This document shows, piece by piece, positions 21,147-45,512 of a stretch of 64,000 nt of DNA. The notes below the pieces were generated by a model that did not search any database, was not told the DNA's origin, and was given only the letters and a program-made list of their open reading frames with translations. Each line of letters opens with the position of its first letter. Position 1 is the stretch's first letter. The DNA comes from a virus (Duplodnaviria; Heunggongvirae; Uroviricota; Caudoviricetes). The position numbers and the translations under genes were made by a program. The stretch lies in the IMG/VR virus record IMGVR_UViG_2909314774_000001; one strand, written 5' to 3'.

Positions 21147-21815
21147 ATGACCAAGATCTTTGTGGTTGGCGGCACAAAGGGCGGGCCTGGCAAATCCACC
21201 GTTGCCCAGCAAATTGCCGTTTGCCTGAAAGTCAAAAAGAAGAAGAAGGTTTATATTACCGATATAGATATTCAGCGCACGACAACGAGCTGGTGTGAAG
21301 ACCGTCGACAGAACGAAGACCTTGAGCTGATTCCTTTTGCATACGTTCAGGATGACATCATTAAGCACCTAAAATCGCTTCAGGGTAGAGCTGAGTTTGT
21401 AGTGGTAGATGCCGGTGGCTTTGACTCCGAAATTCAGCGACAAGCGATGCTGATGGCTGACGTTATCATTATCCCGCTTCGTCCTAAGCGTCGTGATTTG
21501 AAATCTCTGCGTGACATTGATCCTATTATCGACAATGTTCGTAATGTAAACGATAAAGTGAAGGTCCGCGCGGTCATGAACCAGTGCCCGGCTTTGCCAT
21601 CACAAGTGTCTCGCATTCTGGCGGCTAAAGAGATTGTCGAGACGTTTGGCATCGAGTCTGCGCCAGTCAATCTATATAACCGCAACGTCTATGATGATGC
21701 GGAAGAGTCTGGTCGTTCTATCTTTGAAATGACCGGTAGCGAGCGCGACAAAAAGGCGGAAGCCGAGTTTGAAGAATTTGTAGATTATCTGTTGAGTCTG
21801 GAGGAAGAAGAATAA
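21147..21815 (+). CDS. ParA-type partition ATPase (small, deviant Walker A)
   Basis: VVGGTKGGPGKST deviant Walker A (KGGxGKS/T), 222 aa, followed by an overlapping small RHH protein. Confidence 0.8.
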   Translation: MTKIFVVGGTKGGPGKSTVAQQIAVCLKVKKKKKVYITDIDIQRTTTSWCEDRRQNEDLELIPFAYVQDDIIKHLKSLQGRAEFVVVDAGGFDSEIQRQAMLMADVIIIPLRPKRRDLKSLRDIDPIIDNVRNVNDKVKVRAVMNQCPALPSQVSRILAAKEIVETFGIESAPVNLYNRNVYDDAEESGRSIFEMTGSERDKKAEAEFEEFVDYLLSLEEEE

Positions 21816-22174
21816 TGTCCATGAAAATGGGTGACCTAGCAAAGCGCAAAGAGCCTGATGCACCGGCTAAGAACACAACTCCTTTGCGCCAACCAGTCAG
21901 ACCACAGGGACGCCCGACTCGTGGCAAAGAGAAAATTAAAAGCCGCACAATGTCACTGGAGGACGAATACTTCGAACTGCTGGAGATGATGAAGTTCATC
22001 CCTCGCTTCGAGAAATTCACCCGCTCTGATGTGATTCGTGCTGCTATTTTCCATCTTGCGGAGAAGACACCGCAGGAAATCGAGGACATCGTGAAACTTA
22101 ACGAGGCGATCACAGCTGCCGATGTCACGATGCGTACCGATGAAATTAAACGCGAGTTGATGAAGAAAGGGTGA
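21815..22174 (+). CDS. small centromere-binding partition protein (ParG-like RHH)
   Basis: 119 aa, start overlaps ParA stop; unstructured basic N-terminus and C-terminal RHH-like segment (SLEDEYFELLEMM...RSDVIRAAIFHL). Confidence 0.55.
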   Translation: MSMKMGDLAKRKEPDAPAKNTTPLRQPVRPQGRPTRGKEKIKSRTMSLEDEYFELLEMMKFIPRFEKFTRSDVIRAAIFHLAEKTPQEIEDIVKLNEAITAADVTMRTDEIKRELMKKG

Positions 22175-31636: not shown

Positions 31637-31711
31637 GATGGTGTAGCTCAGCGGTAGAGCAGTTGGCTGTTAACCAACTGGTCGGTGGTTCGAATCCACC
31701 CACCATCGCCA
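31637..31711 (+). tRNA. tRNA-Asn (GTT)
   Basis: Hand-folded cloverleaf: acceptor GATGGTG/CACCATC, D-arm GCTC-AGCGGTA-GAGC, anticodon arm GTTGG-CTGTTAA-CCAAC, T-arm GGTGG-TTCGAAT-CCACC, encoded CCA. Confidence 0.85.
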
Positions 31712-31716
31712 ATTTA

Positions 31717-31803
31717 GGGGAGTTAGTCCGTAGGGGCAGCGGGGTAGACTGTAAATCTACTGTCATTGCGACTCGGGTGGTTCGACTCCATCACTCCCCA
31801 CCA
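31717..31803 (+). tRNA. tRNA-Tyr (GTA)
   Basis: Acceptor GGGGAGT/ACTCCCC, anticodon arm GTAGA-CTGTAAA-TCTAC, long variable arm, T-loop TTCGACT, encoded CCA; resembles E. coli tRNA-Tyr. Confidence 0.8.
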
Positions 31804-31807
31804 AATT

Positions 31808-31883
31808 GCCGGTTTAGCTCAGTTGGTAGAGCGCCTGCCTTGTAAGCAGGATGTCAGCGGTTCGATCCCGTTAACCGGCACCA
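31808..31883 (+). tRNA. tRNA-Thr (TGT)
   Basis: Acceptor GCCGGTT/AACCGGC, D-arm GCTC-AGTTGGTA-GAGC, anticodon arm CCTGC-CTTGTAA-GCAGG, T-arm AGCGG-TTCGATC-CCGTT, encoded CCA. Confidence 0.8.
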
Positions 31884-32203
31884 ACACAACAGGTAAGAGC
31901 ATTGGGCGAATCGGCGATACTGACCACAAGCCCGTAAATCGATAGAGTCAGACCAGTGCTCTTACCGTTGTGAGGAAGTGCAGCTCTTTGAAGCAACCAG
32001 AAGATAAGCATCTGGCTTCACAACACAACGATAAGATCATTACGGTTAATCGTCGTTCATGTGCACAATGACTGGTCGAAAGGTAGTGATCTTACCGTTG
32101 TGATGAATGCACAGGCTGATGTGCCGCAACTACAGTAGTGCGCGCTTTGCGGGGCTTGCTACAACCCTGTGTCGGAGTTCAGCACCGACCATCACAATAG
32201 CTG

Positions 32204-32290
32204 GAGAGTAGGGAGCATGGTGCTCAAGCGGTCTTGAAATCCGTCCCATTGTGCAAACGATGATGGTTCGATTCCATTACTCTCCGCCAG
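32204..32290 (+). tRNA. divergent tRNA-Ser-like gene (anticodon TGA), possibly degenerate
   Basis: Acceptor GGAGAGT/ACTCTCC, T-arm GATGG-TTCGATT-CCATT and CCA end are good; anticodon loop CTTGAAA as in tRNA-Ser(UGA), but the D-arm and anticodon stem fold poorly. Confidence 0.45.
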
Positions 32291-43561: not shown

Positions 43562-43864
43562 TAAAGAAAACCCGCCTGTTGGCGGGTTTATAAAGAATTA
43601 TGGCGCTTGTTGAGGAAGTCACTCCTCTTACGCACTTTGTTTTGCCATGCCGGCAGTTAGCTTCTGCCTTTGACTATTCATGCGGCAACCCCGCATTTCG
43701 CCACAATGGGCAATTCACTTTTATGGAATAAACTGGCCGTTGTGTCGATTTAATTAGCATGGCCTTACCATGCTAATTTATTCAACTTGTACAATCCTGC
43801 AAATCTATCCACTCAGGCTTACACCGTCTTCGTTATTGTAGAAATGAGGATCATCAGCGTTGAA

Positions 43865-44080
43865 TCAGCTTAGAGCAATGACATTTGCTGCTGCTGGGCC
43901 TTTAGCCCCATTCTCGATAGAGAATTCGACCTGCTGGCCTTCTTCCAAAGTGCGGAAATTATTACTCTGAATTGCCGAAAAATGTACAAAAACATCTTTA
44001 CTGCCATCAGCAGGAGAAATAAAGCCAAAGCCTTTATCAGAGTTAAACCATTTTACTAAACCAGTCATTTTATTAGACAT
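43865..44080 (-). CDS. cold-shock protein (CspA family)
   Basis: [38 protein letters not shown]: RNP1/RNP2 motifs of CspA-type OB-fold proteins; start placed at the internal ATG (70 aa). Confidence 0.85.
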
Positions 44081-44409
44081 AGATATTACCTTCTTAATTT
44101 TGTGAGCCACATAGTGCGGCGAGAATTTGATCTGTATAGATTGGGACTTACTTAGGCACTTAAGGAGGAGACTCACGAAGAAGGGAAATCAGAAGATAAC
44201 ACTGAACTGAGACTGCTTTACTAAAACTGCTTACATAAGGTCTGTCTTGCAAACCAACGATGCTATTAACGCATACCCCTTCTTTTCATGCAACCTTTAT
44301 TTTTCAAAGATAACTAATTTTTGTCACCATTGGTTTAGTAAACGTTAACGAACCAGACGATGCCAGACACCTTTACAGAGAACAGATGCCCGCCAATTGG
44401 CGGGCATCA

Positions 44410-44973
44410 TTATGCGCATTTCGCAATATCTTTGCGGCGTTTAATCAGTTTCTCCGCAATTTGCTCTATTTCGTTGAAATCTTTCGAGACGCTGTTTCGA
44501 AGCGCCAGATTCCATTTACTCAAAGTTCGGGCATTTTGGACAATTTGATCGCCCTCTTTAAGTCGTCCGTTATTCATGAGCCATTCAGCCACATCAGCCC
44601 AATCCCAGAGAGGAGACTGGCCTTTTATGCGTTGTACAGGGCAAGGGAAGTCGCCGCTTCCGCGCTTACCGTCTTTGAGCAACGCCACTGCCTGGCGAGA
44701 CAGGTCTGTCAGTTCCGCGATATCGCTTAAGCCCACAAGAGCCGAGTCGACGGATTCAACAATTGCACCGATACCGGCTGATTCAATATTGTCGACCGCA
44801 GATGCGATAGCTGCATCAAGTGATTGTGCTTCGCGGTCAAATTCTACATAGACGGAGTTTCCATATGCGCAAATTAGCGCATCGTCACAGCCGTTTTGGT
44901 ACAGCGCGTCTTCCAGTCCTTCCGTCTCATACGATACGCCTGAGAGCGTCAGAGTGAAGTTATAAAGCGCCAT
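44410..44973 (-). CDS. DNA-binding protein with AlpA/MerR-like HTH (second gene of a two-gene operon)
   Basis: 187 aa from MALYNF (start context CAAAGGAAAACTATG); central segment LSRQAVALLKDGKRGSGDFPCPVQRIKGQSPLWDWADVAEWL resembles AlpA-type excisionase/regulator HTH domains. Confidence 0.45.
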   Translation of the reverse strand: MALYNFTLTLSGVSYETEGLEDALYQNGCDDALICAYGNSVYVEFDREAQSLDAAIASAVDNIESAGIGAIVESVDSALVGLSDIAELTDLSRQAVALLKDGKRGSGDFPCPVQRIKGQSPLWDWADVAEWLMNNGRLKEGDQIVQNARTLSKWNLALRNSVSKDFNEIEQIAEKLIKRRKDIAKCA

Positions 44974-45033
44974 AGTTTTCCTTTGAAGATAGTTGGACAG
45001 TTTCTGCAAAAGGCGGCTAATGCCGCCTTGAAA

Positions 45034-45258
45034 TCATTTACAACGATCAACCATTCGTTTGATCTGTTTGGCATGGTTTTCGGGATTACCCGGAGTCGAC
45101 CATACGCTCATTTGGTGAGTTTTGTGTTCACCTTCTGGATTACCGCATCGCAGTCTGCAAAAACAATGTGCAGCACCACCAGCTGCTACCCAGATCCAGC
45201 CTTTACTTAATGCATAGTCAATGGCTGCTTGAATATGCTTATTCGGATGTTGCTTCAT
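45034..45258 (-). CDS. small Cys/His-rich protein (first gene of the operon)
   Basis: 74 aa with GGAGG RBS; HCFCRLRC and H..H cluster suggests metal binding; no family recognised. Confidence 0.4.
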   Translation of the reverse strand: MKQHPNKHIQAAIDYALSKGWIWVAAGGAAHCFCRLRCGNPEGEHKTHQMSVWSTPGNPENHAKQIKRMVDRCK

Positions 45259-45275
45259 TCGCCTCCGATAATAGT

Positions 45276-45304
45276 ATTCTATTCACAGTGTTGACATCTG
45301 TCAA
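45276..45304 (-). promoter_or_regulatory. sigma70-type promoter with overlapping palindromic operator
   Basis: On the minus strand: TTGACA - 17 nt - TAGAAT, about 20 nt upstream of the ATG at 45258; the -35 lies inside the perfect inverted repeat GTTGACATCTGTCAAC (45290-45305). Confidence 0.65.
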
Positions 45305-45512
45305 CGGCGACTGAATTTCATCCGTTCATGCCACACCCCCATCCATCTCATGTATGTGACCTAAAGATGGTCAGCACAGCTTACCAAAATAAGACAACTA
45401 ATTATCTTCGGTGATCTCAATATTTTCCCCTGAACAAAGTTGACATGACGCCATAAACCCGTTCTCTGTTTGATATAATTGATACAGATTTTATAAGTAG
45501 GAACCTATTAGA

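What the first reader, a model, noticed from the sequence alone, without database searches (positions are those of the whole stretch)
44410..45310. Two-gene minus-strand operon with consensus sigma70 promoter and palindromic operator
On the minus strand a near-consensus promoter TTGACA-17-TAGAAT sits ~20 nt upstream of a 74-aa Cys/His-rich protein, followed ~60 nt later by a 187-aa protein with a central AlpA/MerR-like HTH. The -35 is embedded in the perfect inverted repeat GTTGACATCTGTCAAC, suggesting autoregulation by a dimeric DNA-binding protein. The pair sits with a cspA-type gene as a small minus-strand island between the dnaE terminator and plus-strand recombination genes. A small possibly zinc-binding protein plus a DNA-binding partner under a strong host-type promoter could be a toxin-antitoxin-like, regulatory or anti-defence module. 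I do not recognise either family with confidence.
Basis: partly seen in the sequence, partly recalled or inferred. Interest (0 to 1): 0.55.

Follow-up and report, generated by a model that had tools for sequence, protein, structure and literature searches.

The report
Self-repressed toxin-antitoxin-like gene pair
This is a small, self-regulated two-gene cassette on an SSU5-type phage-plasmid that looks like an uncharacterised relative of HicAB toxin-antitoxin modules; it is widespread in bacteria, and its function has never been tested.

Summary
On the minus strand a TTGACA-17-TAGAAT promoter drives a 74-aa gene (A) and, 60 nt later, a 187-aa gene (B), ending at a hairpin terminator. The window is 99.7% identical to E. 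coli LF82 phage-plasmid Cyrano, where published RNA-seq shows both genes expressed in lysogens.

A and B have no Pfam or NCBIfam family. They match PADLOC's untested defence candidate PDC-M06.

- **B:** it has a ferredoxin-like N-domain (not the HicB fold), a weak AlpA-like HTH, and C-terminal helices.
- **Pairing:** across 74 genomes from many phyla, A is always followed by B.
- **Operator:** GTTGAC-N4-GTCAAC overlaps the -35 in 37 of 40 loci where B has the HTH, and in 0 of 13 where it lacks it.
- **Decay pattern:** A is broken with B intact in nine loci, never the reverse.

Best reading: a type II toxin-antitoxin-like module, with A the effector and B the neutraliser and autorepressor. It probably serves plasmid addiction and/or phage exclusion. 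Toxicity, RNase activity and DNA binding are untested.

The parts
45276..45304 (-). Sigma-70 promoter: -35 TTGACA (45304..45299), 17-nt spacer, -10 TAGAAT (45281..45276)
   Evidence: 11/12 consensus match and the only match of 11/12 or better in the window. The same -35/17/-10 layout occurs in related loci. Both downstream genes are transcribed 14-30x above prophage background in LF82 lysogens (PMC9928086).
45290..45305 (.). Operator: inverted repeat GTTGACA-2-TGTCAAC (conserved core GTTGAC-N4-GTCAAC). The left arm covers the -35 and the right arm lies in the promoter spacer.
   Evidence: The arms are invariant and the central 4 nt are free in 37/40 loci whose B protein has the HTH, versus 0/13 loci whose B lacks it; the chance rate is 0.5%. 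The site is unique in the whole phage-plasmid.
45262..45266 (-). Shine-Dalgarno GGAGG, 3 nt before the ATG of gene A
   Evidence: Read directly from the sequence. GGAGG is conserved in most enterobacterial loci.
45034..45258 (-). Gene A, 74 aa: small His/Cys-rich protein of PHROG 5923 / PADLOC PDC-M06A with a HicA-like alpha-beta-beta-beta-alpha model; the putative toxin or effector
45010..45029 (-). Intercistronic GC-rich hairpin (AAGGCGGC-ATTA-GCCGCCTT followed by TTTT), a possible attenuator or mRNA-stability element
   Evidence: Hairpins at the same place with different sequences occur in many related loci. In LF82, gene A is 30x above local background and gene B 14x.
44410..44973 (-). Gene B, 187 aa: ferredoxin-like N-domain (1-77), AlpA-like HTH (~80-140) and a helical hairpin (143-186); PHROG 2620 / PADLOC PDC-M06B; the putative antitoxin and autorepressor
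44385..44408 (-). Intrinsic-terminator-like hairpin (12-bp perfect stem) 1 nt after the stop codon of gene B

Best explanation
This is an autoregulated, type II toxin-antitoxin-like cassette carried as a lysogeny-expressed 'moron' by an SSU5-type phage-plasmid.

1. A near-consensus sigma-70 promoter makes one A-B transcript. This step is shown by the consensus match, its conservation and RNA-seq.
2. B, probably as a dimer, binds the GTTGAC-N4-GTCAAC site through its HTH. The site covers the -35 and spacer, so B would shut off its own operon. This is inferred from the co-occurrence of site and domain.
3. B's ferredoxin-like N-domain binds and neutralises A. This is inferred from obligate pairing, which persists down to 84-aa versions of B that consist of this domain only.
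4. A is a small HicA-like protein. His31 sits where HicA has its catalytic histidine, and a conserved Cys38 / Cys-or-His48 / Cys73 cluster probably holds zinc or a disulfide. A most likely cleaves RNA and arrests growth when freed from B. This step is inferred and is the weakest.
5. In the phage-plasmid the module would punish plasmid loss (addiction) and/or abort infection by other phages.
For: - **Operon anatomy:**
- **Expression in LF82 lysogens:** CYRAN_51 is 30x and CYRAN_50 14x above local background (PMC9928086).
- **Conserved residues in A:** His31 is 96% conserved. It aligns in register with the HicA GSH histidine in a collinear but non-significant hhalign.
- **Gene order:** effector first, as in hicAB.
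- **Pairing:** A is followed by B in every one of 74 loci spanning Proteobacteria, Planctomycetota, Bacteroidota, Cyanobacteria, Nitrospinota and Acidobacteria. One in-frame A-B fusion exists.
- **Modularity:** B has a constant N-domain and an optional HTH, as in many antitoxins.
- **Operator:** it is present only with the HTH, 37/40 versus 0/13, and is unique in the element.
- **One-sided decay:** A is inactivated by stops, frameshifts or deletions with B intact in 9 loci. B is never lost with A intact, although B is a 2.5-fold larger target.
- **Mobility:** the cassette is patchy and mobile. It occurs in 312 plasmids including the 96-kb Y. pestis CO92 plasmid, in phage SSU5, in a P2-like prophage next to Phd/YoeB, and as a lone chromosomal cassette in Providencia.
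- **PADLOC:** both proteins match PDC-M06A/B (1e-19, 1e-32).
Against: - **No experiment** shows toxicity, neutralisation, RNase activity or DNA binding for any member.
- **B is not HicB.** Its N-domain is a generic ferredoxin-like fold.
- **The HTH region is uncertain.** It is modelled at low confidence (pLDDT 56-59) and is only sub-threshold for AlpA.
- **Metal binding by A is inferred** from conservation and topology only; the coordinates could not be inspected.
- **Some A frameshifts may be errors,** particularly those in metagenome-assembled genomes (MAGs).
- **The element already has other TA-like modules** (KacT-type and RelE/ParE-type), so a need for a further addiction system is not obvious.
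Confidence: 0.55

Rival explanations
1. The cassette is primarily an anti-phage defence (abortive infection or superinfection exclusion) system, PADLOC candidate PDC-M06. A would be the effector released on infection, and the phage-plasmid would carry it to exclude competing phages. This overlaps with the toxin-antitoxin reading rather than excluding it.
For: - Both proteins match the PDC-M06A/B models strongly.
- PDC systems were nominated because instances are embedded inside BREX, DISARM or type I RM loci (bioRxiv 10.1101/2024.01.29.577857). PDC-M06 is cassette CAS_00046 with 497 RefSeq occurrences.
- The cassette is expressed in lysogens as a moron.
- It sits in a prophage accessory region next to another TA module.
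Against: - The authors list PDC-M06 among 145 untested candidates, and no paper in the library mentions it.
- The Providencia chromosomal copies sit among housekeeping-type genes rather than inside a defence locus.
- No sensor domain is evident.
Confidence: 0.25
2. The pair is a non-toxic regulatory module. B would be a transcription factor and A a small zinc-binding co-regulator or anti-repressor that modulates B, for instance as a switch in the phage-plasmid life cycle.
For: - B has a DNA-binding domain and a conserved operator.
- A is His/Cys-rich with a likely metal site.
- PHROG 2620 is labelled 'excisionase and transcriptional regulator'.
- The structural link of A to HicA is weak.
Against: - The operator occurs only once in the ~108-kb element, at the pair's own promoter, so there is no visible regulon.
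- The cassette moves as a self-contained unit among chromosomes, plasmids and prophages of many phyla.
- In many phyla B has no DNA-binding domain at all yet still accompanies A.
- The one-sided decay of A is not expected for a co-regulator pair.
Confidence: 0.12
3. B is an excisionase or recombination directionality factor of the AlpA/Xis type, with A as an accessory, acting in site-specific recombination of the element.
For: - PHROG labels for families 2620, 66 and 2790.
- SSU5 annotates the homologue as 'AlpA-like'.
- Sub-threshold PF05930 hits occur in 6 of 54 members.
- The module lies next to recombination genes.
Against: - The Pfam AlpA threshold is not reached.
- The binding site is a single palindrome inside the pair's own promoter, not an array at an attachment site.
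- Chromosomal copies have no adjacent integrase.
- HTH-less B versions exist.
- The element replicates as a plasmid at about 5.5 copies per cell.
Confidence: 0.04

Closest known systems
HicAB type II toxin-antitoxin systems (HicA, Pfam PF07927; E. coli HicA PDB 6hpb, B. pseudomallei 6g26, Y. pestis HicA3 4p78, S. pneumoniae 5yrz)
   Same: - A conserved His lies at the start of strand 2, where HicA has its catalytic His.
- The toxin gene precedes the antitoxin gene.
- The partner combines a neutralising-type N-domain with an optional C-terminal DNA-binding domain.
- The operator overlaps the promoter.
- The pair is already labelled HicA/HicB in the Cyrano GenBank record.
   Different: - There is no HicA_toxin HMM match in any of the 89 members scanned, and no significant profile-profile or Foldseek match.
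- A carries extra conserved His4, His62 and a Cys38 / Cys-or-His48 / Cys73 cluster, plus a short helix or Cys-rich insert between strands 2 and 3. By my recollection, these features are not part of HicA.
- B's N-domain is ferredoxin-like (beta-alpha-beta-beta-alpha-beta), not the partial RNase H-like HicB fold.
- Its DNA-binding domain is AlpA/excisionase-like rather than RHH or Xre.
PADLOC phage defence candidate PDC-M06 (Payne et al. 2024, bioRxiv 10.1101/2024.01.29.577857)
   Same: Both proteins match the A and B models (1.2e-19 and 1.3e-32) and are adjacent in the A-then-B order. This is the same family.
   Different: PDC-M06 is a name for an untested candidate found by 'guilt by embedding'. 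It carries no mechanism, fold or operator description. The copy here is on a phage-plasmid, not embedded in a defence system.
MqsRA and HigBA (other type II modules with the toxin gene first)
   Same: The gene order is toxin then antitoxin. The antitoxin has a separate N-terminal domain plus a C-terminal HTH and represses its own promoter at a palindrome. This comparison rests on my own knowledge of these families, not on a test here.
   Different: No sequence or fold relationship was seen. In MqsRA the zinc site is in the antitoxin, whereas here the Cys/His cluster is in the putative toxin. MqsR and HigB are RelE-fold proteins.
AlpA / Xis-type winged-helix regulators (Pfam PF05930, PF12728)
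   Same: The central region of B (about 80-140) is predicted as helix-turn-helix plus a beta wing. It hits excisionase-type PHROGs at 2e-4 and PF05930 weakly.
   Different: The matches are below the family threshold. B has an extra N-terminal ferredoxin-like domain and a C-terminal helical hairpin, and it is always paired with A. The target is a single palindrome in its own promoter.

Membership tests
HicA toxin (PF07927) | Significant match to the HicA_toxin profile | tested here: not met
   There is no PF07927 hit at E<=1 for the window protein or for any of 89 diverse family members. True HicA proteins in the same database do carry PF07927. hhalign against HicA alignments gives 66% probability over 18 out-of-register columns or 6% in register.
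HicA toxin (PF07927) | dsRBD-like alpha1-beta1-beta2-beta3-alpha2 fold | tested here: inconclusive
   [not shown]
HicA toxin (PF07927) | Conserved catalytic histidine at the beta1-beta2 turn (G-S-H motif) | tested here: inconclusive
   His31 is 96% conserved in 150 representatives and is preceded by G/S/A. It aligns with the HicA histidine only in a low-confidence greedy hhalign.
HicA toxin (PF07927) | Ribosome-independent mRNA cleavage and growth arrest, neutralised by the partner | not testable with these tools
   The only indirect evidence is that A is inactivated with B intact in 9 of 74 loci, and never the reverse.
HicB antitoxin | N-terminal partial RNase H-like (beta-beta-beta-alpha-beta) HicB fold, or a HicB Pfam match | tested here: not met
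   [not shown]
HicB antitoxin | C-terminal RHH or Xre-type DNA-binding domain | tested here: not met
   The DNA-binding region resembles AlpA/excisionase-type HTH instead, and only weakly. It is functionally analogous but not the same domain.
Type II toxin-antitoxin module (generic) | Two small adjacent co-directional genes that always occur together and move horizontally | tested here: met
   A is followed by B in all 74 loci. The cassette is found on plasmids, phage-plasmids, prophages and chromosomes of many phyla.
Type II toxin-antitoxin module (generic) | Antitoxin carries a DNA-binding domain and an operator overlaps the operon promoter (autoregulation) | tested here: met
   GTTGAC-N4-GTCAAC covers the -35 in 37/40 HTH-bearing loci and 0/13 HTH-less loci. 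The promoter geometry is conserved, and there is a single site in the element. Physical binding has not been shown.
Type II toxin-antitoxin module (generic) | Toxin is toxic, antitoxin neutralises it by direct binding and is the more labile partner | not testable with these tools
   Only indirect hints exist: one-sided decay of A and one in-frame A-B fusion in a cyanobacterial MAG.
PADLOC PDC-M06 (candidate defence system) | Adjacent genes matching PDC-M06A and PDC-M06B models | tested here: met
   PDLC04383 scores 1.2e-19 for A and PDLC04388 scores 1.3e-32 for B. The order A>>B matches CAS_00046.
PADLOC PDC-M06 (candidate defence system) | Protection against phage infection | not testable with these tools
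   The authors list it among 145 untested candidates, and no paper mentions it.
AlpA / excisionase-type regulators (PF05930) | Match above the family threshold | tested here: not met
   The window protein has no hit. Six of 54 homologues hit at best E 0.025. PHROG excisionase-type families score 2e-4 to 1e-3.

The most novel reading that the evidence does not exclude
A and B would found a distinct, very widespread toxin-antitoxin/defence family, with at least 740 clusters at 50% identity across many phyla. Its toxin would be a metal-stapled, HicA-like mini-nuclease, and a ferredoxin-like domain would neutralise it. That toxin/antitoxin fold pairing has not been described. The module would be a conserved fixture of SSU5-type phage-plasmids, including the 96-kb plasmid of Yersinia pestis CO92, where it would contribute to plasmid maintenance or phage exclusion.
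Probability: 0.35. Interest if true: 0.55.

Novelty: new variant of a known kind. Interest (0 to 1): 0.42.

Why it matters
The pair belongs to a large family with no Pfam or NCBIfam model and no experimental study. Yet it sits in clinically relevant phage-plasmids of E. coli, Enterobacter, Klebsiella, Citrobacter and Salmonella, and in the 96-kb plasmid of Y. pestis CO92. It also occurs in chromosomes from Proteobacteria to Planctomycetota.

If it is a working toxin-antitoxin or abortive-infection module, it would help explain how these low-copy, non-mobilisable phage-plasmids persist. It would also add a new antitoxin fold and a metal-bearing HicA-like effector to the catalogue.

The operator result is immediately usable. 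It defines a 6-4-6 site and predicts which homologues are autoregulated.

Tried and rejected
- **Family libraries:** Pfam, NCBIfam and PDB sequence searches of both proteins, and of family profiles, gave only noise such as RuBisCO small chain, CagE and lectins.
- **hhalign, narrow HicA profile:** family A against E. coli-type HicA gave an 18-column out-of-register match (HPNKEI versus PRHPxxEI). I rejected it as a short motif coincidence.
- **hhalign, broader HicA set:** with the PDB HicA sequences added, the alignment was collinear and in register but only 6% probable.
- **Foldseek:** A against the PDB gave nothing significant. The afdb50 library was not available.
- **Locus retrieval:** The search for related loci with the broad alignment A3 failed for lack of a conserved stretch. 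The narrower A1 worked.
- **Literature:** a search for PDC-M06 found nothing. The supplement of the PADLOC paper gives only a cassette id and a count.
- **Rfam:** it found no RNA family in the operon itself, only the neighbouring cspA leader.
- **Intercistronic hairpin:** its fold is not more stable than shuffles (z -0.95). Its only support is recurrence in relatives.
- **Rejected readings:** excisionase/RDF, because the site is a single palindrome at the pair's own promoter and no integrase is linked; global regulator, because the operator is unique; anti-defence, because there is no evidence of any kind.
- **Window coordinates:** mapping them onto Cyrano by a constant offset failed because the two are not collinear throughout.

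Full report
**1. What is in the sequence**

All features below are read on the minus strand.
- The region contains TTGACA (45304..45299), a 17-nt spacer and TAGAAT (45281..45276).
- GGAGG lies at 45266..45262 and an ATG at 45258.
- The promoter scan scores the site 11/12. It is the only site of that quality in the 64-kb window.
- About 1.2 such sites are expected by chance in that much sequence, so the consensus match alone proves nothing.
- The -35 lies inside an inverted repeat, GTTGACA-2-TGTCAAC, at 45290-45305. No other copy with up to two mismatches occurs in the window.
- A 74-aa ORF (45258..45034; 4 Cys, 6 His) is followed after 60 nt by a 187-aa ORF (44973..44410).
- A GC-rich hairpin sits between them (45010-45029).
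- A 12-bp perfect hairpin follows the second stop codon (44385-44408).
- The neighbouring cold-shock gene (43865..44080, PF00313 1.6e-33) brings its own cspA 5'UTR thermoregulator (RF01766, 183 bits, 43840..44258). It is therefore a separate transcription unit.

**2. Where the window comes from**

- The region is 99.7% identical to Escherichia phage Cyrano (OV696614), the SSU5-type phage-plasmid pLF82 of E. coli LF82.
- In that record the two genes are annotated 'HicA toxin protein' (CYRAN_51) and 'putative antitoxin HicB' (CYRAN_50).
- That annotation came from BLASTP transfer and Pfam, not from an experiment (PMC9928086).
- The same paper lists both genes among Cyrano's 'morons'. In LB cultures of the lysogen they are transcribed 30-fold and 14-fold above the local prophage background. 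This is direct evidence that the promoter is active in the plasmid state.
- The pair occupies the same position, between dnaE and the UvsY-like, gp32-like and exonuclease genes, in several relatives. These are SSU5 itself, the 96-kb plasmid of Y. pestis CO92, and about 100-113-kb non-mobilisable IncFIB plasmids of Citrobacter, Enterobacter, Klebsiella and Salmonella. In all, 312 plasmid records carry it.

**3. The proteins**

Neither protein has a Pfam or NCBIfam family.
- A belongs to PHROG 5923 (function unknown).
- B belongs to PHROG 2620 ('excisionase and transcriptional regulator').
- Both match PADLOC's candidate system PDC-M06 (A 1.2e-19, B 1.3e-32).
- PDC-M06 is one of 145 untested 'phage defence candidates'. 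They were nominated because copies are embedded in BREX, DISARM or type I RM loci (bioRxiv 10.1101/2024.01.29.577857).

Family A is large.
- It has 740 cluster representatives at 50% identity.
- The best-conserved positions are His4 (97%), Lys7, Trp21, His31 (96%), Cys38 (98%), position 48 (Cys 74% or His 20%), Thr55-Pro56, His62 (82%) and Cys73 (92%).
- The AlphaFold model (pLDDT 88) is helix, three strands and helix, with a short extra helix between strands 2 and 3.

That similarity is modest.
- Foldseek finds nothing significant against the PDB.
- None of the 89 members scanned touches the HicA Pfam model.
- hhalign against HicA alignments is non-significant.
- The one in-register alignment does place His31 on the HicA G-S-H histidine.

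From the topology I infer two clusters. Cys38, residue 48 and Cys73 would lie at one end of the sheet, as a likely zinc site or disulfide. His4, His31 and His62 would lie at the other end. I could not inspect the model coordinates, so this is inference only.

B has three parts.
- Residues 1-77 form a confident beta-alpha-beta-beta-alpha-beta domain.
- Residues about 80-140 form a poorly modelled helix-turn-helix-plus-wing region.
- Residues 143-186 form a helical hairpin.
- The HTH is AlpA-like only at sub-threshold level.

**4. Comparative evidence**

A genome scan returned 74 loci from Enterobacterales, Pasteurellaceae, Neisseria, Pseudoalteromonas, Planctomycetota, Verrucomicrobiota, Bacteroidota/Rhodothermota, Cyanobacteria, Nitrospinota, Acidobacteria and others.

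- **Pairing.** In every locus the A gene is followed on the same strand by a B homologue. The two apparent exceptions have divergent B-like ORFs.
- **Modularity of B.** In Planctomycetota, Nitrospinota, Rhodothermales and Methylococcales, B is only the 84-95-aa N-domain. In Pasteurellaceae and Neisseria it is the N-domain plus the HTH. In Enterobacterales it has all three parts. The ferredoxin-like domain is therefore the obligate partner of A, and the DNA-binding part is an add-on.
- **Operator.** GTTGAC-N4-GTCAAC (up to 2 mismatches, or the swapped GTTGTCA-N-TGACAAC form in cyanobacteria and Marinospirillum) lies 26-53 nt upstream of A. It occurs in 37 of 40 loci whose B has the HTH, and in none of 13 whose B lacks it. 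Shuffled upstream regions contain it 0.5% of the time. The arms are invariant while the central four bases vary freely.
- **Promoter geometry.** The left arm supplies the -35, and a TAnnnT -10 follows at 17 nt in 36 of 42 loci.
- **Single target.** The site occurs once in the window plus the remainder of Cyrano. B therefore appears to have no target other than its own promoter.
- **One-sided decay.** A is disrupted by a stop, frameshift or deletion while B is intact in nine loci: L022, L050, L053, L076, L077, L078, L079, L080 and L081. No locus has intact A without B. B is the 2.5-fold larger mutational target. Under neutrality a 9:0 split has a probability of about 1e-5 by my own arithmetic. 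Some frameshifts in MAGs may be assembly errors.
- **Fusion.** One cyanobacterial MAG encodes an in-frame A-B fusion.
- **Contexts.** These include a lone chromosomal cassette in Providencia and the accessory region of a P2-like prophage beside a Phd/YoeB pair in Histophilus.

**5. Mechanism**

The best-supported model is a type II toxin-antitoxin-like module.
1. The promoter makes an A-B transcript. This is shown.
2. B represses it at the palindrome. This is inferred, with strong comparative support.
3. B's N-domain neutralises A. This is inferred from obligate pairing.
4. A is a HicA-like, probably metal-stabilised, effector that most likely cuts RNA. This is inferred and is the weakest step.

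On a low-copy phage-plasmid (about 5.5 copies per cell) such a module would act in post-segregational killing and/or exclusion of other phages.

The intercistronic hairpin recurs with different sequences in relatives, although its fold is not more stable than shuffles. It could lower B relative to A transcript levels, which would fit the 30x versus 14x RNA-seq values. This is speculative.

**6. Comparison with known systems**

- The pair works like hicAB in several respects: the toxin gene comes first, the toxin is small and alpha/beta, the antitoxin is modular, and the operator lies at the promoter.
- It fails the tested HicA and HicB membership criteria. There is no HMM match, and B has a different fold and a different DNA-binding domain.
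- It is a member of PADLOC PDC-M06, which is a label without a mechanism.
- The excisionase reading suggested by the PHROG name is not supported.

**7. Verdict**

- The module is a new variant of a known kind: an uncharacterised, widespread toxin-antitoxin-like family with a well-defined operator.
- Interest is moderate. Nothing here overturns expectations, but the family is large, unstudied and present in medically relevant phage-plasmids. The operator and domain-covariation results make it directly testable.

Noticed in passing
window 43840-44258 (-): The phage-plasmid carries a cspA-type cold-shock gene complete with the cspA 5'UTR thermoregulator (Rfam RF01766, 183 bits, full-length model; CSD domain 1.6e-33). 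Related phage-plasmids have an unrelated 142-147-aa gene at this position, so this looks like a host-derived insertion.
   Followed up: partly
window 45010-45029 (-), and L008, L011, L013, L015, L016, L019, L021, L028, L035, L037, L044 intergenic regions: A GC-rich hairpin sits between genes A and B in many enterobacterial loci. The stem sequences differ, so the structure is kept while the sequence changes. Some hairpins are followed by a short T run. This may be an attenuator or mRNA-stability element that sets the A:B ratio. In the window its fold is not more stable than shuffles (z -0.95).
   Followed up: partly
L062, L063, L067, L080 (upstream of gene A): In cyanobacteria and Marinospirillum the operator half-sites are swapped (GTTGTCA-N-TGACAAC instead of GTTGAC-N4-GTCAAC). 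This implies a different arrangement of the HTH dimer on the same hexamer.
   Followed up: no
L003 (phage SSU5) about 20-80 nt upstream of its gene A; L002/L019 (Y. pestis plasmid): SSU5 has two related inverted repeats (GTGTTAAC-CCC-TCAACAC and GTGTTGAC-TCAA-GTTAACAC) instead of one. The Y. pestis copy has a degenerate right arm (GTGTTGACACGCGCTCACAC). This suggests lineage-specific operator changes.
   Followed up: no
L067 3995-4792: A Xenococcaceae cyanobacterial MAG encodes gene A fused in frame to gene B (265 aa). An internal Met lies at the usual B start. It could be a genuine fusion or an assembly artefact.
   Followed up: partly
window 21147-22174 (+): Adjacent 222-aa and 119-aa ORFs have the same lengths as Cyrano's ParA (CYRAN_28) and 'RelE/ParE putative toxin' (CYRAN_29). 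Cyrano also carries a KacT-type toxin pair. The element therefore seems to hold several toxin-antitoxin-like modules. The window is not collinear with Cyrano here: a 568-aa ORF follows instead of a 267-aa one.
   Followed up: partly
window 31637-32289 (+): The window has four tRNA genes (Asn-GTT, Tyr-GTA, Thr-TGT, Ser-TGA), whereas the Cyrano record annotates three (Asn, Thr, Ser). The window's element therefore differs from Cyrano in this cluster.
   Followed up: no
window 43568-43589: A palindromic hairpin (AAACCCGCC-AACA-GGCGGGTTT) lies just after the dnaE stop codon (43561). Both strands can form this hairpin, so it may serve as a bidirectional terminator for dnaE (+) and the cspA unit (-).
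   Followed up: no
plasmid hits H42-H48 (pig and chicken E. coli / E. fergusonii plasmids): Some SSU5-type plasmids match only the middle of gene B (window about 44581-44894) at about 73% identity, with no detectable DNA match to gene A. They may carry a more divergent version of the pair.
   Followed up: no
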